Assembly: GCF_018350175.1 (NCBI RefSeq)
Contig: NC_058383.1
Location: 18,352,001 to 18,416,000 of the forward strand
Length of the DNA: 64,000 nt
Direction of reading: 5' to 3'
From: Felis catus
Lineage: Eukaryota
Position 1 is the first letter of the stretch, and every line of letters begins with the position of its first letter. This document shows, piece after piece, positions 5,993 through 24,500 of the stretch. The notes beneath the pieces are model-generated. The model saw only the letters and a program-made list of their open reading frames with translations, was not told where the DNA came from and searched no databases. The translations under genes were made by a program, and so were the position numbers.

Positions 5993-6249
5993 CCGGAAAA
6001 GGGACAAGATCTGATGTGGGTGGGAGGAAATCACTCTGACAATTATGTGAAGGTTAAAGAGACCCGCTGAAGTCTTAAATTAGGACACTGTCAATAGAAA
6101 TGGGTGCGGCCAAGTTGGGGGAAAAAAAAAAAAGAATAGCGGTATACAGTTAACAAGTAGCTTTGATTTTTACAACATCCCCGTAAGGCAGGCGTTTCCC
6201 GGTTTTACAGACTCAGCGAGGCTCAGTGACTTGGCCGAAGTCACACAGC

Positions 6250-6800
6250 ACGCTGCTGGCGTAGCCCCGGGTGTCAGTCTTTTCTTTGCAGCGCCGCCGG
6301 ACGCCGCACAAGATGGGGGTCCGACTGCGGCAGGTGGCAGCGGGAAATCGCCACTTCCGTTCAGTAACGGCGGGAAAACCTGGTCGACCACGGCTACGAG
6401 GAGCTGGTGACCGCAGAGGATCTGGCCGGGGAAGAACGGCTGGGAGAAGGAATTTGGGTCTCGGCGGCCGCCGTAGGAGCGGCGCTCGGATCCCCATGGC
6501 AACGGCAAGAAGCAGCGGGAGCTTCTGGGCGGTGCTGCCGCCGCGGCGGATTGGATGAGCGCGGCGCGGAATCCGTGAACTGCCCGCGGCCCCGCGGGTG
6601 CAGGTGCTGGGGACCAGCGGACGGAGGGGGCCGGGGTGTGGGGACAGTCAAGGGTGTGGCCAGGGCCAGGCTGGGGCCTGCGAGGGGGCGCCGCCCCGAA
6701 TCCCCCGGACCCCCGACCCCACTGTCCCGACCAGTAGCCATCGTTCGGCCTCAGTTTCTCCAAACTGGGCGGGGGGTATCGGGCACCCCAGTCCAATGGC
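6250..6800. promoter_or_regulatory. CpG-island promoter of the upstream ORF / long ALDOA transcript; probably bidirectional (TLCD3B/FAM57B lies on this side in human)
   Basis: High CpG density, ETS-like ccacttccg at 6351, RFX X-box-like ccatggcaac 6494-6503, acceptor tctcctctgcag at 6842 opening the ATG exon. Bidirectionality is inferred from synteny. Confidence 0.7.
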
Positions 6801-6872
6801 CCCTCTCAGCCTCTGAGACCCAGGACTTTCTCTCCTCTGCAGCTCCTGGACTAACCGGCGCTGTCCTGCCCC

Positions 6873-9800
6873 ATGGACGTGAGTCCTAGGCCCCTTACCC
6901 TTTCCCGGAGGGACCCCGTAAGTGCCTTAAACTCGCCCTGACTTTGCCTGCCTTCGAGCCCGGACTGGACAGGGGGCTCTGTACCCAACGTAGACCCTTC
7001 GAGCTCCGGAGGAGAGCTGTGAGACAGTGCCGGGAATAGACTTCCCACGGAGCGCACATTCCCGCGCTTCTTGGCAAGATGAGATGCTTGCCAAGTAATC
7101 AAGGAGAAGAGGCATCCCAGGCTGGGGGAGCAGCTCGGGCAGAGCCTCGGGGTGGGAGAGAGGGTAGGCGTTTGGGGAGCTGCTGGGACTTCAGTATGGC
7201 TGGAGTGGAGAGGAGGAGGGAGGCTGAGGTGGGCAGGGCTAGCCTCGGGGCTTTGTCACCGAGATAAGAAGTTTGGACTGAGTCACTGGGAGCCATTGAA
7301 GGACTGGAAGGAAAGGACAGATACACAACACAGCTGGGATGGGAAGGGGCAGAATGGCGGGTTGGAAGACAGTCAGCGGCCAGTAATGTGGCCTAAGGGA
7401 CAGTAAAGTAGTACAGAGGAATCAGAGACAATAGATATGTTATGGAGAGGCATTCTGAGAGGAAGAGCAACACATCTTGGAACATTCTAGAATGATCAAC
7501 AGGTACCGATGGTGCTGAAACGGGGGCGACAGAGGAAGGTCACATTTGGGGAACAGGATAGTGTAGTCCCAATGACTCTCTCCCCAGCATCTGATGGCTG
7601 TTCCTCCCCTCTTCCCAGCCACCTCCGGTGTCCCTCCTGGTATTTTTGCCTTCCTGCAGCCCCTCCCACCTCCTTGTCACCCCTTCCTCCTGTGCTTGTC
7701 CAGGCCTCCTCTAGCCCGTGGAACCCAACCCCGGCTCCCGTCAGCAGTCCCTCCCTGCTGCTCCCCATCCCCGCCATCGTCTTCATCGCTGTGGGCATCT
7801 ATTTGTTGCTGCTCGGTGTAGTGCTGCTGACGAGACACTGCCTGCTGGTGAGGGGCCTGGTGGAGGCTGAAGGGTGGGCTCTGGGGAAGTGGAGGCCGTC
7901 AGTCGGTGCCCTCATCTGCAGGCCCTTACTCTGAGGCTCCTTTGCCATTTAGTCCCCGCATCTGTACCTATCACGGTCCCTCCTTTCCTGTCCCCCCCGC
8001 ATGCCACCTGGCCCGGATCCTGAGCCCTTTCCATCTCCTAGGCCCAGGGCTGCTGCACGGACTGCAGCTCCCCCTGCAGGAAGCAAGGCGCTTCCCGGCC
8101 CCAGGACTGTTGCTGGACCTGTGCGGAAGCCTGCGACTTCCCTCTGCCCAGCCCCGCCCGCTGCCTGGATGCCTGCTGCCCCCAGCCCACCGAAGCTGTG
8201 AGTTCTTGTCCTGTCCCCGGCTCCCCGAGCCCCGACCTGGGCGCGCTCTGTGCGTTTTTGTGTTGTTGTTGTTCAACAACGTTGATTGCTGAGCACCTGC
8301 TTTAGGCCAGGCCCCGTTCGGGATCCTGGCTCAGCAGACACCATATACAGCACATCACGTACTTTTCTGGTGCTGAAAACTACTTTGAGAGAAGAAAACA
8401 GGGTGGCAGCCGGAGAAAGGTGAGTACCATGTAGGGCACCCAATGGCTTCCGAAAACGGAAATATAAACGACCCCTCTCACCGCTCCTTCTGTTCACTGA
8501 GTGAGCACTACATTCCAGACAGTGTGCCACTTTTACTGGCATTATTATTTTCTCAGCAACCCTGAGAGCTGGGTATTTTTTAAACATTTATTTATTTTTG
8601 AGAGAGAGAGAGAGAGAACGAGTAGGGGAGGGGCAGAAAGAGCCGGAGACACAGAGTCCGAAGCAGGCTCCAGGATCCGAGCTGTCAGCACAGAGCCCGA
8701 CATGGGGCTCGAACTCACGGACTGCAAGATCATGACCTGAGCCGAAGTGAGACGCTCAACTGAGCCACCCAGGCGCCCCTGGGTATTATTTTTAATGTTT
8801 ATTTATTTTGAGAGAGAGAGAGAGGGAGAGAGAGAGAGAGAGAGAGAATCCCAAGCAGGCTCTGCATTGTCAGCACAGACCCTGACATGGGGCTCGATCT
8901 CATGAATCATGAAATCATGACTTAGCTGAAATCAAGAGTCAGACGCTTAAATGACTAAGCCACCCAGGCGCCCCAAGAGCGCTGGGTATTTTTAAAAAGC
9001 TATATAGTACTGATTATGAAAAGCATTGATTACAGTGTGCGTGTCGAAAAACATAGAAAGTACAAGTCACTTTATAAACCAGCTCCATAACCAAGGTTGC
9101 TACATTTTGTGTAAATCCCTCATATACTAATATGCAGTACTATTCCTGCTATCTTATGCCATTATTTGGTAAAGATGGGGTCATACCACACATATTGTTT
9201 CATCACAACTGCTACTTGCCCTTTTTACCTGGACATCACACCTTGACCCCCTAGCTCTGCCTGTGTGTGTATATAGTTAAGTATTTTTATCCTGTTTTTG
9301 CAGGGGGACAAGTTGCCTCCCGGAGGGAGGTTCGGTCAGAGTCTTGCAGAGCAAATCGCTCCATTGTGTGTTGAAACAGAATCCTCAGGGAGGAGCCTTG
9401 CTCCCAGAGGCCAGGCCATTTTTGCCTTTGTGGGTTTTACGATGTTAAATGTAACTGACCACCTTCCTATTTGGGGCTCAGATTTAAACTGCAAAGCTCT
9501 TGCCTTGGAAGTGGTGACCTTCCCCAGGAGGAAAGAGGGAGGATAAAAGACCCAGCAAATTCCCAACTTGTGCGGACCTTAGTTGGTTAAATTCCTGGGA
9601 GAAGTTGTGAGTTTTGAAATAAATTATGAGGCAAGGGGCTCTCCTTCAAATAATCTGCTTTTGGTTTCTGAGGGGTAGCCGGGAGAGGAGCCCAGGACTG
9701 GGGGTAAGAGGGCAAAGGGGAAAACGAAGACCCAGGGTCCTAAAAACTCCTATTTTATAGGAAATGAATTACAAAGTGATTTCTGGCCCCCTCTCCTGGC

Positions 9801-12800
9801 CGGGGGGGGGGGGGGGGTGGGGTGGGGGGGAGGGAGGTTGCCCTTTGCCCCTTCTGTCAGTCTGGGCCTTTCCTCCCTGGTCAGACCCGTGAGGATGGAG
9901 TGAGGAATTCTGGACCTGGAGACCTCAGGGCCTGATCTATCCGGCTTCAGCCAGAGCCAGGAAGGAAGGATTCTAGAATGGCACAGAGCAGGGCGGGATC
10001 ATTCTGTCATTCTGTCCTTGAGCCGTCTCTGTACAAAGTATAGTAAAGTGTCTGTTCTTCAGTTTCCTTATAGTAACAAGGACCACAAATATTACAAAGC
10101 TCTTGCCTATTTTATAGCTGTCCGAAACTGAGGCTTACAGAGGCTTGAGTGAGTCACCTGAGGCCTAGGCCAAGACACCAACCCAGGTGTCTTTTCCTTT
10201 CTGGGACAAACCTGCCTGCTCTGCTTCTTTCTCAAGCATGTGGCAAGGATCTCATTCATTCACTCATTCATTTATTCATTCACTTATGTATTCACCTACC
10301 AAAGATTTATGGGGTCACTGTCAAAGCCCTGTGCCAGGCCCTAGGGGCTCAGCAAAACAAGCTGGACACGGTCCCGGCCGCACAGGGCTTCTATTCGAAT
10401 GAAGGGCAGAGAAGAAAAAGTAGGCAGTTATGCTAGACCATGAGAAAGGAAGTCATACAGCGCAGTGGTTGGTTCTCAGTCCTGTGTGTGATCAGAGGCA
10501 CATGTGAGACATAGAAAACCACGCATCCAGGCCCCATACTCAGTAGGTCTGGGATGGGATTGGAGTTTGTGAATTAAGAAAAATTTTTTTAAATGTTTAT
10601 TTATTTTGGAGAGAGAGAGACAGAATGCGAGTGGGGGAGGGCCAGAGATAGAGGGAGACACAGAAGCCGAAGCAGGCTCCGGGCTCCGAGCTGTAGGCAC
10701 AGAGCCCAACACCGGACTCGAACTCTCAGACCGCGAGATCACGACCTGGGGTAAAGTCGGCGCTTAACTACCTGAGCCACCCAGGCACCCTCGGCTCAGT
10801 TCTTGATTCAAGGCATGCCCCCCCCCCCCGCCCCCGGTTTGCCTCCATGCTGGGCACGGAGCCTATTTAAAAACCTGGGGGAGAGAACGGGGACAAGAAT
10901 ATCTGCCTGCCATTGAGTGTTCACTGTGTACCAGGCATTGTCCTTGCCGCCATGAGCCTATGAAGGAGGCACATTTGGATGAGAAAACTGAGGCTTGAAA
11001 AATGAATTAGCCAAACCTGGGCCTGAATTCGATTCACATCCGGGCCTGAGCTCTAACCACTAAAGATGGCTGGCCTTCCCAAAATCAAAGTGAGAGAAAT
11101 CGAAGCAGAAAGAGCCTAACACACAAGGGTTAACAGTCTTGGGGCATTCTTGCTTAATGTACTGAAGTAGCAGATTCCTTCGAGAAGCCACATGGCTGCT
11201 TGTGAGAGTCGAGAAATCCATTAGACAGTTATAAATGACTAGCTGTAAACCCTTCCAGTGGACAGAGCCCAGAAATACTTTTCATACCCTCTCCTCTGAG
11301 CTGATGGCAACGGAGCGTCTCTCAGCCACTGTCCTGTGTAGGGAGTGACGGTGTGGTCCTCCAAAAACCCACAGAGTCCGCTTCATGCCCAGACTGGGAC
11401 TCCCCAGGGAGGCCCCAAACCACCCCAGCATCAAACACAAGGGAACCACTTCAATCTCCCTTCCACCATGACACCTCTAGCCTCCTTCTTGAGAGACAAT
11501 TCTGCTGGCACTACACCAGCCCAGTTCAGACCCCTGTCCTTGCAGCGGGCAGATCCCCTCCCCGCACCGCAGCCCCTACTGATATCTGATCTCACCAGTC
11601 ATCTGACACCGCACCCCCAAACCTCAGCTGTTTGAAAGGTCATTCCCCTATTCCTGGCTTGGCCTGGTGTCTGATTGAGCTGTGCAACTGTGACTGTCAC
11701 TAGCTCTGCCTCAGGCCTCCAGGAGCCAATCTCCTGTCACATCCTGGGTGTGTCCCACCCCAGCCACTTGGCCTGACTCCAGTCCATGCGTGAAGCAGTC
11801 ACAGATCACCCTTGTCACAGGGCAGGAAGGGAGACATAGGACAGTTCTCCGTTCTTGTCACTAAGGACATGCTGTTCCTAGTTCCCAAGAGACAGACCCT
11901 TCTGATTTCCTTGAAGCCCTCTTCTTTCTTCTTTGCCCAAAGAGGGGGAAATGATTTGATTTATCCACTCATTCAACATTCATTTGTTTCTCACATACCT
12001 ACTGAGCACGAGTACCCGTGCTAGGCCAGTGGTGACATGAGAGAAACTGTCCCTGTCCCCGCAGACCCAGAAGGAAGCTGGTACTCCTGGCATTGGTGTT
12101 GAGGGGTATCCCCCTCTCTAAGCCTCCATTGCCTCTTCTGTAAAGAGGCCCCCTGTGCAAGGTTCTGATACATAAAAGAGAGGTGACTCTGTGTGAAACA
12201 CTACAAAATTTTCTTAGATCTGTACATTACCATTCTCAAAGACAATTGAGATTTTTTAAAAGTCATTCATGAATACAGTCTGTGCCTTGCATGGAGTAGG
12301 CGCTCAGAAATGATGAACGAGATCCTGCAATCTGGTCTCATGCCAAGGAAGAAATTCACAAAACCAAGTCATTTTCATCATGGACAGAAAATGTGTGCTT
12401 TCCCCGGTCTCCTGGCTTGGAATTGAATGAGGCCACAAGGATATAGTAGAATCATCTTGGAGCTGAACATTGGGACTTAGTCAAACAGGACTATTTGGTC
12501 CTCGGTCTCCTTGTCTATTAAATAGGAAGAAGGGAAGAACCGCCTGAACTCAGTTGTTTGGAACACTGCCTCCTTGCTGATTTAATAGCACAGGGAATTG
12601 ATTTGTTCCCAAGAATGGTAGACGGTACCCTCTGTTCCACTGGGCAAATGGGACTCTCCAGGCCTCTCTGTTCCCTTCTCCCCTGAGAGGGAAACAGCGT
12701 AGGGCACTGGTCACCCTTCCTCCTGCCCACCGCCCTCACCCCTTTCTCCTCTCCCTCAGGGTTGGGCCTCTCGCTGCCCTCGCTGCTGCCCACTCTGCGA

Positions 12801-12873
12801 CTGTGCCTGTGCATGCCAACTTCCTGACTGCCAGAGCCTCAACTGTCTCTGCTTTGAGATCAAGCTCCGATGA
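6873..12873 (+). CDS. Uncharacterised 139-aa single-pass membrane protein with Cys-rich tail, encoded in exons upstream of ALDOA (probable orthologue of human LOC112694756); coding exons 6873-6878, 7704-7847, 8042-8197, 12760-12873
   Basis: ATGGAC|gtgagt at 6873; ccag|GCC..CTG|gtgagg (144 nt); ctag|GCC..GCT|gtgagt (156 nt); ctcag|GGT..TGA (114 nt). All introns are phase 0 with canonical GT-AG. Spliced protein: MDASSSPWNPTPAPVSSPSLLLPIPAIVFIAVGIYLLLLGVVLLTRHCLLAQGCCTDCSSPCRKQGASRPQDCCWTCAEACDFPLPSPARCLDACCPQPTEAGWASRCPRCCPLCDCACACQLPDCQSLNCLCFEIKLR. Orthology is from memory. Confidence 0.85.
8575..8974 (-). mobile_element. Two tandem CAN-SINEs (about 8575-8779 and 8785-8974)
   Basis: Both end in gagccacccaggcgcccc; flanked by repeated ctgggtatt target sequence. 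Confidence 0.9.
10583..10790 (-). mobile_element. CAN-SINE (feliform type)
   Basis: gagggagacacagaagccgaagcaggctccgggctccgagctgt.. diagnostic segment. Confidence 0.9.
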
Positions 12874-13198
12874 GGACCCGGAGTCCCTGCCCTTTGGGGA
12901 GCGGCCAACCTCCTGGGCCCACATGTCCCTTTCCCTGAGGGGCGACTGGACACCTTTCTCTAGGCCACTGGAACCACAAATGGCCTGCCCAGCTCATCAG
13001 CCCGGGAACCAGCTGTGGAGAGCCTGGCTTCCTGCAGAGCAGGACTCAGAGAGCCCTTGGCCCGCTGGACTGCAACCCCTTTGGGGGGCCAGGAGGGAGA
13101 GGGGCTAGTGCTCTGGCAGGTGCCCCTCCCCGCCTCTCCTCCTCCCCACATAAACTGTTAAAATTGAAGGTGAGGGTGGGAGACGCTGCTCACCACAG

Positions 13199-13526
13199 AC
13201 CACATTATGGGACAAACTTGAGCCTTGAGCGTCAGGATATAGGGGTACCACAACCACACCTTGTCCGCGGACTCTTGGTTATTTTGAGGTGAGTGTAGTG
13301 CCTGCAGCTGCTCTCCCGCCAAAAGCTTGGTCTCCTGAGAATCACAACAGCCATCATCAGGGCCCAGAGGGGAGGGGGTTGAGAAGGAGGCAGAGAGGGC
13401 CACAGATCTGAGTCCCCTTTCCTCTCCTTCCCTCCCCACAGATCCCTGGCAAAGATTGATTTCTCTTGACAACCTTTGAGGGCCTCAGGCTGGATTTCCA
13501 AGGAAGAAATTTCCTCAGATGGACGG
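13199..13526 (+). other. ALDOA: ALDOA non-coding leader exons N1 (about 13199-13288) and N2 (13442-13526)
   Basis: Donors ttttgag|gtgagt (13288) and ggacgg|gtgagt (13526); acceptor ctccccacag| (13441). Sequence resembles the recalled human ALDOA 5'UTR (..caaagatt.atttctcttgacaacc..ggatttccaaggaagaa..). Confidence 0.7.
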
Positions 13527-13631
13527 GTGAGTGGGCAGGGGCCCTCCCCCTGCCCCCCAACTAGGGCAGGCCCAGAGCTTCCTCCCCCTTCTCTCAGTTT
13601 AGGCCCCACGCTGGCCTGAATGTCAGGGGCT

Positions 13632-13815
13632 TCAGGTTTCCCTAAATATAGGACCCTGCCAGGGGATCCGTGGCAAGGAAAGGGCAGGGGTCACCGGAGA
13701 AGGTTGGGGACATTGGCTGGGGGGAGGGCAGGAGCTGCCTTATAACCCAGCCCAGGAGCGGCCTGGCTCACTCGCTGCTGACCAGGCTCTGCCCGCTCCT
13801 TCAGCCTCCTCGCAG
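13632..13815 (+). promoter_or_regulatory. ALDOA: ALDOA muscle promoter pM and exon M
   Basis: MEF3 motif TCAGGTTTC 13632-13640 next to MEF2 site CTAAATATAG 13642-13651; TATA box at 13741; donor cgcag|gtgggc at 13815. Matches the known pM architecture. Confidence 0.8.
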
Positions 13816-13979
13816 GTGGGCGCCAGCAGGACGCCGCAGGGTTGGGGTTGGGCCTAAGGGGTCCAGATTAGGAGGGGAGGCTTGGCCGGTAGGATGAGGG
13901 ACTCGGAATGTATCTGGGGGCTGACCGGCTAGGGACAGGTTTGAGTCTGGAGGGGGAAGTCAGGTCCCAGGGAGACGTT

Positions 13980-15100
13980 TGCGCAGGGACTCTGGCGCTG
14001 CATCTCCAGACTCGCTGGGGCGAGCGGCGGCCGGCCGGTTCCGCCGCAGTCTGGCTGTGGATGGCGGCGGGGGCCGCAGGCGGGTCCGCGCCGGCCCGGG
14101 CGGAGAGGGCGTGCGCACGCACGGCGAGGCCGGTCCCCCGCGGCCGCGAGCCCGACCCGGGCAGCTGGGGCGCCTACACCGGCGCGGGCGGGCCACCCGG
14201 AACGGCTGCCGCCCGGCCTCCGCCCCCTCCCCCCGCCGCTCTTCCGCCTGGGCTGGTGACCCAGGGAGGGGCGGCCCCGCGCGCCAGAGCCCGCAAGTCG
14301 AGCCTGCAGGCGAGGCCGGCAGACGCCCAACCTCCGGGTTCTGTCACAGTGTGACACACGCTGCATCAGCGCAGGCCGGAAGCTGGGGCTGCCCCGCGGC
14401 CGCGCGGCTGGGCCTAGACCGGGAGGCTGAGCCTCCGTCCTTTCAGGCTCTTGCACCCACTTGCCCCCACCTCCCTTCCCATCTCCTCCGGGGCCCCTAA
14501 TCGGCTGAGTCACGGCTCCCCAGAACGCGCCAACTGGGGGGAGAAGGGAGACGGCGGGTGGGGGGTGGAGAGCCCAGGCGACCCGAAGGATGTGGCCCGA
14601 GTCACGTCCTAGGGGGCCGGGGGGGTGAGCGGGGGGGGGGCAGGGATCGTGTTCTCGTAGCGCTGGCCCCGCCCAAGCGCCGCCTCCGGGCTTCGCCTTT
14701 CGGGGGCGGCCTCTCCACCGTTCCTCTCCTGCAATTGGACGCCAGCGCTCTCCCGGCCCCCTTCAAGGGAAAAAACCCGGCGGAGGCTGGCGCGGTGCCT
14801 TTATAAGCCCGGCGCCACCTCCTGCTTCCCGCCCCCTGCGCCGCCCCCTCCGGAGCTGAGTAGGCTGCGTTCCGCTTGGAACGCGCCGCAGAACCAGGGT
14901 GCTGGTGACGACTGCCGCGTTCGCTCCCTCAGTCCGCTCGCCGGCCCGTCGCCCTCCACCGCCGCACCCCGCAAACCCGCCCCCTCCCGGGCCAGGTGAG
15001 CTCCCCTCGCCGTGTGCGAAGGTCAGGGACCCTGGAGAAGGATCCTGGGGGCAGTGGCCGGTCGGGTCGGAGCCCACCCCCATTCCCCCGTCCCAGCATC
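13980..15100 (+). promoter_or_regulatory. ALDOA: ALDOA housekeeping promoter pH (CpG island) and exon H
   Basis: CpG island; AP-1 TGAGTCA 14506-14512; HIF-type HRE gtcacgtc (GACGTGAC on the minus strand) 14601-14608; TTATAA at about 14801; donor gccag|gtgagc at 14995. Confidence 0.8.
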
Positions 15101-15976
15101 TCCCCCCGCCCCACTACCTCCCACATACATGCTCCCAGCCCGGACTCCTCAACCCTCTTCAGCTTGAGTTTCCTTGGTTTGCTGCGCAATGCAGCGACTA
15201 CGCGCGCTGAGTCATGGCGGAGGAGGAAGCAGGACGAGATGAAGGGCCATTCCTTTTCTCCTTTCCTTGCTGGGATCCCAGGTGCAAAGGATTACGGCCC
15301 CTTTGCCTCTGCGGTGATCCTAAGAGGCAGCGAGGGGGTGGGGGCCAGCCCGTATACTCTCAGGGTTTCCGAAAGCGTGGTTGGTCCCTGCCCTGGGAGG
15401 TGGGACCCCCCTGGCGAGGAGGGGAAACCCCTTGGAAGCGCGTGCTGCTCAGTTAACACTTTCCGTGCCTTTACTTATCTGGTGACCTTGATTGTGAGCC
15501 TGGAACAGCTGCAGCTGTGCGGGCAGACAGGAGCATTTTCAGGGGAAGGGGTGGGGCCGCTCGCCTCTCTACAATTCTCTTACCCTGTATGAGCAATGAG
15601 ATCGGTAAACCTTACCCCGTTCCTCCCCCTTGGGCTGGGCTTCCTCTGCTGCCCTTTCCTGGGCTTCCCGTTACCCTCCTGCCCTTTTTTCTAACACCCT
15701 TTTCCTAAGGCCCTCCCCCAACCCTGGGAGGAGAAGCTTGACCTTGGGATGTCCTTGAGGCTTTGGAGCCTGGGCCGGCCCTGGAATCTTGGGTGGATCC
15801 CGTACAGCAGTCAGAAGATCTGGGTTCTAGTCTCAGCTCTGGCCCTTGGTTTCTGTGGGACTTGAAGCCCAGAGCTTTCCCTTCTCTGGGTCCTTCTGTT
15901 GGGCCCTCTGCCTGATGTGCGACCTCTGAATTCTAAAATACTCCGGTTCGGTTCTGCTTCTAGGCAAGGTGACCCC

Positions 15977-16117
15977 ATGGCAGAGCGCAAGCCAGAAGGG
16001 TCCAGCTTCTACATGACCTGTCTTTCCATGTCTCTGGCCTATTGCTTTACCACAGATGCCAGTACGCAACCCCACCCTAAGGTGGGAAACACCCAGCAAC
16101 AAACAAAGTTAGGGAAG
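15977..16117 (+). CDS. ALDOA: Alternative ALDOA coding exon giving an N-terminally extended (testis/sperm-type) isoform
   Basis: [47 protein letters not shown]|gtacag splices in frame to 16316 ([10 protein letters not shown]..). Similar to human isoform 2 N-terminus [11 protein letters not shown].. Confidence 0.85.
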
Positions 16118-16330
16118 GTACAGGAGGCAGGCCTAGTACAGGGAAGTTGGGTGTAAGGGAGGCTTGGGCACAGGAAGTGCCCCAAGACCTGTCCAGTGTG
16201 GACTAGGGGAGGTAGGGAACCTTTGTCCTGACCTCCAGGCAAGGGGCCCTGCTTGTGGGGAGACCATGGGAAGACCCAGCTAACCATTCCTCCCCTGTCT
16301 GCCTCCTTTGGCCAGGAACTGACCGGCACC

Positions 16331-18951
<2,621 letters not shown>

Positions 18952-20849
18952 GCGGAGGTGTCCTAAGGCTGCCCCCTCGACACTCCAGGCCCCGTCCCCT
19001 CCCACACTCACTCTGGAGGAGGGGACTTCACCCAGGGCTCCAGGCTGCTCTTTCCCATCACTTTTGCCTCCCATGTGACATTGGTGTGTGGTGTTGTCTG
19101 TATATGCTAACTCCACTGCTCTTTCCAGCCCACTGCCAATAAACATCTATTTAAGGGGGAGTGTGCCGTCCGTGTCTGGTGTTCAGGACCGGGGAGGGCC
19201 AGGGGAGGTGGCAGAGCCTAGAAGAAAGATCCCTTGTTTCCTATTCTTCCTTCCTGGGCAGGAGAAAAGTGAATGGGTTGGGAGAGGACCTTCCTGCTTT
19301 GTTTTATGCTTGCCCAGGGCTTCAAGAAGAGAGCTCGTGACATTTTCTCCCTACCATCAAGCTCCCCATCCGCTTTTACCAGCAGCACCTGATAAGGCTC
19401 ACAGTTGGGGGGGGGGGGGGGAGTATGTGTTAGGCTCAGTCTCACTTTTAGACCCAGAACTCCCAGGTGCACAAGGCCCCTGTGACAAAAACAGCCACTA
19501 ACCTAAGCCAACATTTCCTGAGTGGTATGAGCCAGGTGACAACGACACGACACCACGCAAGTGATCTGTATGAGTGGGTGTTGTTATTCCCATCTCCCGC
19601 TTAAGTCCGTGCTGCCTGAGGTTGCACTTTCTTGATGAAGACAAGATTATTAATGCCTACGTCCTTAATCTGTACTGTTGAGCTTGTCTGTTTTCCCATC
19701 TCAACAGGAGATGGGATTAGAACTGGTTTCTTAATTAATCTTCCTTGGACCATGGAACCGCCTGAAGAACCTGGAATTTATTCCAATAACCCCCTCAACA
19801 ACACAGATTGTTCAGCCCCCTCAACAACACAGGGCGCAGGTTCCAGGTTAAGAACTGGGCCAGAGTAGCTGCTGCGTTCCGTGAAGCCAGAATGAAGGCC
19901 CCGTACTTAACGCCTCTGCCACACCTTGAACCCTTTCCCAGTCACCCAGGTTGGGTGGGCTGTAGCAGTAACTGCATCAGGTCTCTTGAGCTGTTAAAGG
20001 CCCTAGTTCTAACCAGGGATCTTAGTGAGTCCTGCCACTTCCTGAATTTCCCTCTGGGCCCTTTACTGTCTGAGCTCCCTTCTGGAGGGAAAAAAATAAC
20101 CTTGACTTTTGTGATCTCTCTGGACCTACTGAATTCCTGTAGTGATGTGCATAGAACTGACTTAACCTAGGACTTTTTAGGAGTTTAAGAACTTGGGTCA
20201 TTTCCTTCAGTGCACATCTGCATCTATTACCTACATACAAAACCAACCCCACTCCCAGTGCCTCTCTAAACTTTGGCCTCGCTTCTGTGCCTAGCCTCAC
20301 TCAATTCTCTGAAACAAAGTCTTCAGGAAAGCAAATAAAAATTGAAGGTCAACAGAAGATAGCAAAAAGGAGTTTTCAAAAGGGAGCAGCATGTGCAAAG
20401 TCTCAGACACCAAGTATGCTCACAGACCAGTCACTTCCCCAAATACCAGTGGCGGGGGTGGGCTTTTTATACTAAGGGTGAATTCCAGAACGTGTGATAG
20501 GTGGAGATACTAGAACTGATTCCTTAAAAAATAAATAAATAAATAAAACTTGCAGGCAACAGGAAGCAACTGAGGGGTGTCGGGGGGTCATTTTGACTGA
20601 GGCCCAGACGGTGTGGGCAAGGTGGACTCTTTTCTGCCTCTAACTTGGAGGTCCTCTACGGCAGAGATTTCTCTGGGGCCACGGAAAGAGATTTGGACAG
20701 GATCCTTCCAGCCACTGAACAAATGTTTAGGTATGCCTACTGTGCCAGGCCTGTTCTAAGCACCAGGGCTGCAAGGGTGACCCTCAGGGATGGGTAGGCC
20801 GACTCAAACAGGTAAATAAAAGCGTGTCACAAAATTACACGGCGGCCCC

Positions 20850-21500
20850 GCGGCTCAGCTTGCTTCCCTAACGGAGATGGGAGTGGGGCGGACTGAGGCG
20901 TCCATCAGCTCGCAAGAGGCGGGTCCACCGGGCCCCCGGTGACCTCCGCCCGCACGCTGCCCACATCCGCTTCCTTCGGCTCATCCCCACTCCTCTGCTC
21001 CGGGAGGTGGGGGTAAGGGCGCGGCGCGCGAGGGGGAAGGTGTGTGTGACGCCACATCCGGCGCGCGGCGGAACTGATCTCCCTTTGCTTCCGCGGCGGG
21101 GCCGGAAGTAGAAGCGGCGGTGGCGGCGGCCCAAAGCGGAGGGAAGGAGGAAGGCAGGCAGGGAGTCCGGGAGCCGGAGCCGGAGTCGCGGCGGCGGTAA
21201 TAGGCTGAGGCCCCTCTAGGCCACCGTCCCGAGCGCGGGATCGCGGGGTTCGGCGGGAGTTAGCGGGGAGCGGCCAGGGCCGTGGGACGCTGGGGGTCCC
21301 GGGGCCGATGTGAGGGGAGGCGGGGGTGGGGGTGGGGGGGGCCGGGCCGGCTCCAGAATTTAGTTGCCTCCCCACCCCCACCCCCCCGCTCCCCCTACGG
21401 ACGCTCTGATCCACGGACTCGTCTTCTCGTTCCTCAGGAGACCCCTGTGCGGTGCGGAGGGGGCGGCGGCCCCGGCTCTGACCCGCGCCGGGGGCGGGTG
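20850..21500 (+). promoter_or_regulatory. PPP4C: PPP4C CpG-island promoter and non-coding exon 1
   Basis: CpG-rich, ETS/GABP ccggaagt at about 21102, donor gcggcg|gtaata at about 21196, acceptor at 21437. Confidence 0.75.
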
Positions 21501-21507
21501 GTGGGCC

Positions 21508-24500
21508 ATGGCGGAGATCAGCGACCTGGACCGGCAGATCGAGCAACTGCGGCGCTGCGAGCTCATCAAAGAGAGCGAAGTCAAGGCCCTGTGCGCTAAG
21601 GCCAGGTGAGCCTGGTGGCCCCGCTGCCCAAGGGGGTTCCGGTCTGGGGCAAAGCCAGTGAGAACTTGGGGCCTGGATCATCCTGGCATCTTTCCCAGAG
21701 AGGAGCAGAATAGGGCCACTTCCCTCGAGCAACCAGCCTGTTGGGAGAAGACAGACCTGGATAAAGACACCGAAAGTATGAAGTGACGCGTTTTCAGTGG
21801 CGTTAGAGAGTCCTAAGATACTTAGGAAGCTCACGGAAACAACTTTACCTGCCGGAGGAACAGAGGTTTCTTGGAGGAACTGAACTTTGGGGATAAGCCC
21901 AACCCTTGAGTTCTGTGGGAAGTAAGATGATGTAGTGGTTAGGAGCTCAGGCTTTGGAATGTGATGGTTCTAGGTTGGGAGGTGAGCTCTGCCACTTACT
22001 GGCTGTGTTGGTGATCTTGAGGTCCCTGACAGTTTCTTCATTTGTAGACTGGGGATAATAGTACTTACTAAGATGGCTGTGACGAGTCAGTAAGTTGGTG
22101 CGTGGGGTGGGCTTAGCATAGTTCCTTGGTACAACGTAAGTGCTCACTAATCCTTAGGTGTTACTGTTGTTACCGTGTAGGAAGAGGGCATTGCTGATAT
22201 GGACTGAAGTCATCAGGGAAGGCTTCTAAGAGAAGGTGGCCTGGAAGGATGAAAATCATTTGGCTGGCTGATGGGAGCAGGGCCAGGGAGGAAGGACATT
22301 CGTAGTAGGATGAGGGCAGGAGTGGAGGCCCCGAGATGTGTGGGCACCAGCAAGGAGACCACTGAAACCTGCCTCCCCTAAGGTACTGTTTGCAGCTTGC
22401 ACCGTGCCGGAGAATTGTAGGGAAAGAGCCAGGAGAACCACCGTACGTTTGTTGAACAGCAGGCCCACGGTTCCACAACAGGCCTTGTACTGGCAAGGAA
22501 CTTCCGTCTCCCTCACAGCAGTTTTGTGAGGTCAGGACTATTTGCTCCATTTAACGTGACTCCTGGAGGCCTGATGACTTGACTGAGGTCACCCAGAGAG
22601 AACGTGGCGGAGCTAGGTTCTGAACTTGTGGCTCTCAGACTCTTGCTTGGTTTTACTTCACACAGACAGACTCATAGCAGTGAGACGAGGCCTGTTTGGT
22701 GAACAGGCAAGGCCCTTTTTTGTCTGTGACTGTGTTTTGCCGTTTGAAGAAAATTTCCCTGGCTGGAAGAGCCCCAAGATGTTTTTAGTCATCCCTGTTC
22801 TCTCTGTCTTGAGTGGCATTTTTAGGAACTTAAACCAACTGTTGCCTGGCACTGTTCTTTTTCCTGTTAGACTCATCTTGCCCAGAGGGCCTGAATTGAT
22901 TCGGTGGTGAGGATAGCTAATGCTCGAATAGCACGGTGGAGTTTTCAGAATAACAGAGAGGTGATTTATTCCGTCTCCATTGCTCTTGGCAGCAGCCCTG
23001 TGGCTTCGTCAGGTCAAGCGTGCGTGTTTCACAGAAGAGGAAACTGAGTCTCTGAAAAGATAATGTCTTGCCTGCAGTTTCACAGCTCGTTGGAGGGGAG
23101 GTTCATTTTGGATCCAGATCTTTCACTGTACTCCATGCTCATTGACAGCCAAGCAGAGACACTTAAACTGTGTACAAAGCACTGGGGAGCTATAGAGGAC
23201 TGAGGAGTGGGAGAGTCCCATCCAGCCGAAACTGAGAAGGGCCTGGGAGGTCCTGGGCTGAGGCCCAAGTTGGCCAGTATTATCTTGGGCCCATTCTGAA
23301 GGGGGAACAACTCTTGCACCTGGCCATGGCCTCCTGGAGACCCACCAGGGGCCCAGCCAAGGCTGAAAGTGTCAGGAACCTCCCTTTGCTCACAGGGTAC
23401 ATAGTCTCAAACCCTTGGAACTAGAGAGGCCTGAAGTGTGTGGACTGAACTCAGTCCTACTAAAAATACCAGTACAGGAAAAGAGCAGAGGGTTTGAATC
23501 CGGTGGTTTTCAATATGAGTCCCAGCTTCGTCACCTATAAACAATGTAATCCTGGTCAAGTCTCTCCATCTCTCCAAGTCTTTGAAGTCCTTACGGAGCT
23601 CAGGTGAGACTCTGCATCTGTAGGGACAGGGGCTGGCACTTTGGCAGGCATTTTCTAAAGGTAGCATTCGTTGTGGAAGTAAAGGTGGGCGGGTGTGACC
23701 CCTGAGAGGGCGGATGATGTGCTGTGAGTGACAGAGCTGGGCTTGGAGGCTGGGCCCGGAATCTGTGGATGAGGCCGGCACAGATTCATAGGAGATTGGG
23801 CTCCTGAGTTCAGTTCATTCACTCTCCAGCTTCGTGACCGTGATCCTGCCCCCTTTTTTCTCTAAGCCTTGGTTTTTCTGTCGAGGAGGAAAAGAACCTC
23901 CCCGAGTCCATTGGGGAGGTCATCATAAGCAGTTGATGTGGAACAGTGTTTCACGCCAGATGCGTCCCTAGCGGGAGGGCCTGGTTGTTGGATGGCCGCT
24001 CAATCACTGCCAGTGCCTTCCCCCGAACGTCCCCCCATTCCCAGAAAGCCAAGCAAACGCACTTCCCTCAAGCCACCTTTTTCATAGAGAGCATCTTCAG
24101 GGCCATAGGGGAAAGCATCCGTTCTCGGAGCTCAGGGAGCTGCTTGTCTCCTAGGAGGAGGCTGGCAGAAAAAGGCCAGTGCCTGGGCGCCCCCCACACC
24201 AGAGTAGCTAGGTGGCAGCGCCAGGCTGCCTGAATTAAATCCCACCTGTATGACCGTGGCCAGTTTATTCCCCTGAGCAGTGGGTGTCACCACAGTGCCC
24301 GCCTTGGGGGGTGGCCGTTGGGTTTGTGTCATCGACACCAAGCTCTTACTACGGTCCTGGGGTGTGGCGTGAACTGGAGTGGTCACTGCTGCCATCATCA
24401 CCAAGGGTGAAATCTGGAAACGTGGCACCGCTTACTTCGCTGTGTGTGTGTAGCCGACAGAGTGGTTTCACGTCACGCGCTCTCGAGTGGTAGTAGACTC

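What the first reader, a model, noticed from the sequence alone, without database searches (positions are those of the whole stretch)
12760..16331. The Cys-rich ORF appears to share a transcript with ALDOA (bicistronic / giant uORF / NMD coupling)
I see no canonical AATAAA between the stop at 12873 and the ALDOA leaders, only CATAAA at about 13149. Instead there are donors at 13169, 13288 and 13526 that lead through N1/N2 into ALDOA at 16316. An mRNA from the 6.3-kb promoter would carry the 139-aa ORF followed by the whole ALDOA CDS, with many exon junctions after the first stop, the classic NMD trigger. Either the ORF escapes NMD, uses the weak poly(A) site, or couples its expression to a glycolytic enzyme.
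Basis: partly seen in the sequence, partly recalled or inferred. Interest (0 to 1): 0.7.

Follow-up and report, generated by a model that had tools for sequence, protein, structure and literature searches.

The report
Known gene sharing aldolase A's transcript
A small, ancient membrane-protein gene sits just upstream of the aldolase A gene, has no standard signal to end its own message, and likely borrows aldolase A's exons as its tail; this arrangement was already published for human in 2019, and whether one message makes both proteins is untested.

Summary
The 139-aa ORF (coding exons 6873-6878, 7704-7847, 8042-8197, 12760-12873) is the cat-family orthologue of human ENSG00000285043/LOC112694756. 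Mudge et al. 2019 (PMC6886504) described it as a CDS in the ALDOA 5' UTR, co-transcribed with ALDOA, with no poly(A) evidence before the ALDOA start, and with ALDOA also made from its own downstream promoters. In the window no AATAAA/ATTAAA lies between the stop and ALDOA, though that alone is expected by chance. Four carnivore RefSeq models, one from a felid, join ORF exon 3 to the ALDOA leader exon 13442-13526. No reads from this species were laid, so its own junctions are unverified. Best reading: the ORF's low-level mRNA likely uses ALDOA's exons and poly(A) site as a 1.6-1.8 kb 3' tail with nine downstream junctions (a predicted NMD substrate), while ALDOA protein comes from downstream promoters. 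True two-protein output and use of CATAAA are less likely. Added here: the protein family, with no Pfam match, reaches far beyond vertebrates (hemichordate, priapulid, chelicerates, annelid, molluscs, orthonectid).

The parts
6200..6800 (+). CpG island, likely promoter of the ORF (P1 of Mudge et al.)
   Evidence: CpG obs/exp 0.88, GC 0.68; P1 described for human/mouse; start site not mapped here
6843..6878 (+). ORF coding exon 1 (ATG 6873, context CCC-ATG-G, weak at -3)
   Evidence: MD start shared by mammalian orthologues
7704..7847 (+). ORF coding exon 2, transmembrane helix
   Evidence: 144 nt as in the human PhyloCSF region; helix 24-51 is the only confident part of the model of the bat orthologue
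8042..8197 (+). ORF coding exon 3, Cys-rich
   Evidence: 41 of 43 candidates match, 100% to a leopard model
12760..12873 (+). ORF coding exon 4 with stop; conserved C-terminal Cys motif
   Evidence: 114 nt as in human; motif conserved to invertebrates
12874..13288 (+). Untranslated tail of exon 4; candidate donors 13119, 13169, 13288; CATAAA 13149; ATGs 12923 and 12980 (61- and 42-codon frame)
   Evidence: donor near 13119 inferred from primate and deer models
13442..13526 (+).
   Evidence: C-termini of clouded leopard (IPGKD), dog, raccoon dog and grey seal models match this exon
13632..13815 (+). Likely ALDOA muscle-type promoter (TCAGGTTT 13632, CTAAATATAG 13642, TATAA 13741) and leader exon ending 13815
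   Evidence: the names MEF3/MEF2 and pM are recalled
14000..14995 (+). ALDOA CpG-island promoter (TATAA 14802) and leader exon ending 14995
   Evidence: CpG obs/exp 0.82, GC 0.75 for 14000-15100; P2/P3 described
15964..16117 (+). Optional ALDOA exon with in-frame ATG 15977 (52-aa N-terminal extension)
   Evidence: human 418-aa isoform 2 (P0176)
16316..19143 (+). ALDOA coding exons (ATG 16331, stop ends 18951) and AATAAA 19138, the likely 3' end of the shared mRNA

Best explanation
The 139-aa ORF is a conserved protein-coding gene with no AATAAA/ATTAAA of its own, and its mRNA likely runs on through ALDOA's leader and coding exons to ALDOA's poly(A) site, so that ALDOA sequence would serve mainly as its 3' tail while ALDOA enzyme is likely made from ALDOA's own downstream promoters. 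Shown here: the ORF, its conservation, the splice signals, the missing hexamer, the downstream promoter features. Published for human: the joined transcript and absence of poly(A) evidence. Inferred: the same joined mRNA in this species; poor translation of ALDOA from it (139-codon first ORF, three or more further ATGs); NMD keeping it scarce (nine junctions and 1.6-1.8 kb behind the stop), with relief where junction-dependent NMD is lax, such as male germ cells. The protein is predicted to be a single-pass, N-out membrane protein with a cytosolic Cys-rich tail (lipidation or metal binding; untested).
For: Human: cDNA BC004333, no transcript of the CDS without ALDOA exons, no poly(A) evidence, ALDOA ubiquitous from P2/P3, P1 weak and testis/brain-biased, zebrafish orthologue separate with its own poly(A). 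Window. Carnivore models join 8197 to 13442 (P0201, P0189, P0001, P0011). Gelada model runs exon 4 > 13442 exon > 15964 exon > 16316. In mouse hippocampus the ORF's gene id is in a lower-medium expression class, Aldoa among the top. Germ cells are reported to read the downstream-junction signal poorly.
Against: No reads of this species were examined. RefSeq models are automatic and some are clearly artefacts (in-frame fusions P0024, P0033, P0039). For mouse the paper had no cDNA or long read joining the two genes, only short-read coverage. No NMD data for this transcript were found. In round spermatids long 3' UTRs do trigger NMD, which cuts against germ-cell escape for a 1.6-1.8 kb tail. No peptide evidence is listed for the protein.
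Confidence: 0.65

Rival explanations
1. Truly bicistronic mRNA: ribosomes that leak past the weak ORF start, or reinitiate, make ALDOA (perhaps the N-extended sperm-type form through the 15964 exon) from the P1 mRNA, which couples the two proteins and strips junction complexes so that NMD is avoided.
For: ORF ATG has C at -3. GENCODE marks the locus 'cotranscribed with ALDOA'. P1 is testis-biased and an N-extended ALDOA_V2 is a spermatogenic isozyme. A gelada model includes the 15964 exon in a P1-type transcript.
Against: ATGs at 12923, 12980 and 13519 lie between the stop and 16331; reinitiation after long ORFs is poor (recalled). ALDOA has stronger promoters of its own. The 2026 survey of human bicistronic mRNAs does not mention ALDOA in its main text, and its 11 supplementary files show it only in expression and IP-MS tables (one file cut, transcript ids not searched).
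Confidence: 0.15
2. The ORF has its own short mRNA that ends at a non-canonical site (CATAAA 13149, or another site in the retained tail), and the joined forms are minor read-through that is degraded.
For: CATAAA at 13149 is present. Zebrafish keeps its own poly(A) site. A stable short mRNA would explain strong protein conservation most simply. U/GU content behind 13149 is no lower than behind the real ALDOA site.
Against: No poly(A) evidence in human; mouse coverage runs on into Aldoa; the hexamer is probably not kept in a mustelid; no TGTA upstream, unlike the ALDOA site; a strong donor lies 15 nt behind it, where U1 binding tends to suppress cleavage (recalled).
Confidence: 0.15
3. The ORF acts only as a giant regulatory uORF that dampens ALDOA from the distal promoter; the peptide is incidental.
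For: It lies in annotated ALDOA 5' UTR exons; no peptide support is listed.
Against: PhyloCSF rank 226; amino-acid motifs conserved from mammals to chelicerates, annelids and molluscs; separate gene in zebrafish.
Confidence: 0.05

Closest known systems
Human ENSG00000285043 / LOC112694756 (ENST00000338110), mouse ENSMUSG00000114515, zebrafish ENSDARG00000097765 (Mudge et al. 2019, PMC6886504)
   Same: 139 aa, four coding exons, 144-nt and 114-nt exons, position in front of ALDOA, 124 of 139 residues identical (counted by eye), no poly(A) signal before ALDOA.
   Different: Nothing of substance; donor choice behind the stop may differ by lineage, and a 37-codon cassette exon seen in primate models has no match in this intron.
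Mammalian bicistronic mRNAs: MIURF-MIEF1, PYURF-PIGY, ASDURF-ASNSD1, STREMI-SLC35A4 (PMC13303939)
   Same: A conserved protein-coding ORF lies in the 5' region of another gene's mRNA.
   Different: There the two-ORF mRNA is the predominant form and both ORFs are translated; here ALDOA is mostly made from its own promoters, the first ORF is multi-exon and 139 aa, and nine junctions follow its stop.
Junction-dependent NMD substrates and read-through transcripts
   Same: Stop codon far more than 50 nt upstream of many exon junctions; upstream gene spliced into the next gene.
   Different: The read-through form appears to be the only mRNA of the upstream gene in human, and its stop is the normal one.
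Keratin-associated proteins (automatic RefSeq name of many orthologues)
   Same: High Cys and Pro content.
   Different: Transmembrane helix, several coding exons, no Pfam match to any keratin family; the name is a composition artefact.

Membership tests
ENSG00000285043/LOC112694756 orthologues | 139-aa CDS in four coding exons | tested here: met
ENSG00000285043/LOC112694756 orthologues | High sequence identity and single copy | tested here: met
   89% to human; own genome gives the three window exons and one weak hit with stops, E 0.017
ENSG00000285043/LOC112694756 orthologues | Directly upstream of ALDOA, same strand | tested here: met
Functional bicistronic mRNA (MIURF-MIEF1 type) | Both ORFs under protein-level selection | tested here: met
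   PhyloCSF
Functional bicistronic mRNA (MIURF-MIEF1 type) | Both ORFs on one spliced mRNA | tested here: inconclusive
   Published for human; carnivore models join the exons; no reads of this species examined
Functional bicistronic mRNA (MIURF-MIEF1 type) | Two-ORF mRNA is the predominant source of the downstream protein | tested here: not met
   Own downstream promoter features in the window; ALDOA ubiquitous from P2/P3 in human and mouse
Functional bicistronic mRNA (MIURF-MIEF1 type) | Both proteins translated from the same molecule | not testable with these tools
   needs reporters or isoform-resolved ribosome data
Junction-dependent NMD substrate | Stop more than 50 nt upstream of an exon junction | tested here: met
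   first junction 246-415 nt behind the stop in the modelled mRNAs
Junction-dependent NMD substrate | Stabilised by loss of UPF1/SMG6 | not testable with these tools
   supplement of PMC9723633 could not be read
Regulatory uORF | Short, no protein-level conservation | tested here: not met
   139 aa; motifs kept across bilaterians
Keratin-associated proteins | Pfam keratin/KRTAP match, no membrane helix | tested here: not met
   0 of 4 pieces and 1 of 12 proteins with any Pfam hit, a sub-threshold DUF7248; helix in all 17 proteins scanned

The most novel reading that the evidence does not exclude
A bilaterian-wide, unnamed Cys-rich membrane protein lost its own 3' end in mammals and is now expressed only through an NMD-sensitive read-through into ALDOA, so NMD strength sets where it is made (germ cells, neurons), and in testis the same mRNA also supplies the N-extended sperm aldolase through the 15964 exon.
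Probability: 0.12. Interest if true: 0.6.

Novelty: already known. Interest (0 to 1): 0.25.

Why it matters
The architecture is in print, so the finding itself adds an orthologue. What stays open is worth a modest effort: how a conserved protein is made from an mRNA with nine junctions behind its stop, and what the protein does. The human gene lies in the 16p11.2 copy-number region (paper titles), and reads of this transcript are easily counted as ALDOA. The family's reach into invertebrates, beyond the 'vertebrates' of the 2019 table, offers more systems in which to test function.

Tried and rejected
Sequencing runs: no RNA holder listed for 12700-13600; no read depth, junction or 3'-end data were obtained, so nothing rests on reads. 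Retrocopies as fossils of the joined mRNA: searches of the own genome with the ALDOA last exon, 12874-13530 and an ALDOA exon as protein found only the locus itself and two paralogues at 91% and 81% (likely ALDOC and ALDOB, not checked). Paralogue of the ORF: one weak hit with three stops, whose locus matches the region only through repeats. Pfam: nothing above threshold. ESM Atlas: only unnamed or automatically named clusters of the same family; a 0.76 hit to glycoprotein NB is below the lead level. Structure: mean pLDDT 55.8, pTM 0.29, so no fold search was run. In-frame ORF-ALDOA fusion proteins (P0024, P0033, P0039): rejected as annotation artefacts, since each uses a different path and drops the conserved C-terminus. 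Absence of AATAAA as statistical evidence: rejected. AATATA 13645 as a poly(A) signal: it sits inside a promoter-type motif. NMD data: supplement unreadable. Classical ALDOA promoter papers were not found, so N1/N2, pM, pH labels are recalled. No paper on the protein's function surfaced (open-access library only).
Full report
Where we are. The window is from a cat-family genome: ORF exon 3 is 100% identical to a leopard model. The region holds a Cys-rich ORF, then ALDOA (ATG 16331, stop ending 18951, AATAAA 19138), all on +. One ALDOA coding exon lies under N in this copy; its length was taken from the 364-aa enzyme.

Observation. Exons 6873-6878, 7704-7847, 8042-8197 and 12760-12873 have AG/GT ends and give 139 aa with 22 Cys. 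Between the stop and 16331 there is no AATAAA or ATTAAA; CATAAA (13149), AAGAAA (13504) and AATATA (13645) are present. The missing hexamer is not surprising statistically: 94.5% of 2000 composition-matched simulated sequences lack AATAAA and 88% lack both main hexamers, though only 89 of 606 equally long window stretches lack both. It matters only because a real gene needs a 3' end.

The ORF is a real gene. Exon 3 found 41 relatives among 43 candidates, in placentals and marsupials, many named 'LOC112694756 homolog'. A profile of 8 mammalian proteins found 62 representatives at E up to 0.001. I looked up 20 of the 62: 5 are named vertebrates (turtles, geckos, smelt, a frog, lamprey), 8 named invertebrates (Ptychodera, Priapulus, Limulus, spiders, Capitella, Argonauta, Pinctada, Intoshia), 7 unnamed. 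A wider profile added octopus, nemerteans and a crab (it contained invertebrate rows, so part of that is by construction). Cys-rich proteins can match by composition, but the motifs align in order, with 7 invariant columns in 21 rows. All 17 proteins scanned have one hydrophobic helix near the N-terminus; 16 have no Cys before it and 15 have more K/R after it than before, which suggests an N-out protein with a cytosolic Cys-rich tail (inference). Pfam gave nothing above threshold. The fold model is poor apart from helix 24-51. The gene is single-copy in this genome as far as the search sees.

It is in print. Mudge et al. 2019 (PMC6886504; I read section 7, part 7 of supplementary file 9 and rows of files 3 and 4; file 1 could not be searched) use this locus as their example of a new CDS that shares an RNA with a known gene. 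Their table lists ENSG00000285043, 139 aa, four coding exons, conservation 'vertebrates', 'cotranscribed with ALDOA', weak expression led by brain and testis, no peptide support. The figure legend says no human transcript of the CDS lacks ALDOA exons (cDNA BC004333), there is no poly(A) evidence before the ALDOA start, mouse has short-read coverage but no cDNA or long read joining the genes, ALDOA is ubiquitous from two downstream promoters, and the zebrafish gene is separate with its own poly(A) site. The window protein differs from the human one at 15 of 139 positions (by eye).

Joining in carnivores and other mammals. No reads of this species were examined, so I used gene models as indirect evidence. 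A clouded leopard model ends PTEA-IPGKD, exactly the first codons of the window exon at 13442; dog, raccoon dog and grey seal models end in the same exon. These four skip exon 4, so they show ORF exons reaching the ALDOA leader exon, not the full-ORF path. The full path is seen in a gelada model (exon 4, 13442 exon, 15964 exon, 16316). Gelada and muntjac models fit a donor near 13119 better than 13169 or 13288 (scores 113 against 85, 74 against 53), and a human model reads the same way by eye. In the window 13119 is a weak donor and a mustelid model reads through it, so the donor may differ by lineage. Most of the other models examined end in the normal C-terminus or in retained intron and say nothing on joining. 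These are automatic models; three in-frame ORF-ALDOA fusions are likely artefacts.

How it most likely works. A CpG-island promoter at 6200-6800 makes a scarce mRNA whose first long ORF is the 139-aa protein. Lacking a strong poly(A) site, it would splice into the 13442 exon and ALDOA and end at 19138, leaving 1628-1797 nt and nine junctions behind the stop. ALDOA's start lies 346-515 nt downstream, behind ATGs at 12923, 12980 and 13519, so ALDOA output from this mRNA is likely small; TATAA boxes at 13741 and 14802 and a second CpG island mark ALDOA's own promoters. By the usual rule the mRNA is an NMD substrate; that is untested. Low levels fit (PMC12112531, one passage seen). PMC9723633 (passages seen, supplement unreadable) reports that germ cells read the junction signal poorly but do degrade long 3' UTRs, which cuts both ways. 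CATAAA is a poor candidate: human data are negative, there is no upstream TGTA, and a mustelid model implies the hexamer is changed; against that, the U/GU content behind it is no worse than behind ALDOA's real site.

Comparison. It resembles the bicistronic mRNAs listed in PMC13303939 (passages and a supplement search seen) in layout, but fails the test that the two-ORF mRNA is the main source of the downstream protein; translation of both from one molecule could not be tested. An N-extended spermatogenic ALDOA_V2 is known (PMC2881024, passages), and the matching exon is intact here (15964-16117), which keeps open the idea that the testis-biased P1 mRNA supplies it.

Verdict. Real, and already known. 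No functional paper surfaced in my searches (listings only). New here, and modest: the bilaterian range of the family, carnivore model evidence for the join, and the variable donor. Interest 0.25.

Noticed in passing
window 8197 to 13442: Exon-4 skipping, annotated in four carnivores, would give a 107-aa form without the conserved C-terminal motif; several other mammalian entries are 87-aa forms that skip exon 3.
   Followed up: partly
window 8198-12700: Human and gelada models carry a 37-codon cassette exon between exons 3 and 4 that shifts the frame; no match in this intron, so possibly a primate poison exon.
   Followed up: partly
window 6313-6333 and 6843-6872: If 6333 is used as a donor (weak score), ATG 6313 in strong context opens a 10-codon uORF that stops just before the ORF start.
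   Followed up: no
window 13519: This ATG gives a 4-codon uORF when spliced to 16316 but is in frame with the long ALDOA form (7 more residues) when spliced to 15964.
   Followed up: no
window about 7510-7703: Felid RefSeq models start the protein at an upstream ATG in an extended exon 2 (202 aa, named keratin-associated protein 10-2); likely an annotation choice rather than the conserved start.
   Followed up: no
P0082: The family is kept in the highly reduced orthonectid Intoshia linei; no insect or nematode name appeared among the hits that carry names.
   Followed up: no
G000: No ALDOA retrocopy was found in this genome, whereas PMC2881024 lists 2 in human and 18 in mouse; the search gives lower bounds.
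   Followed up: partly
window about 21000-21606: GC-rich promoter and first coding exon (ATG near 21509) of the next gene, which reads like PPP4C (name recalled).
   Followed up: no
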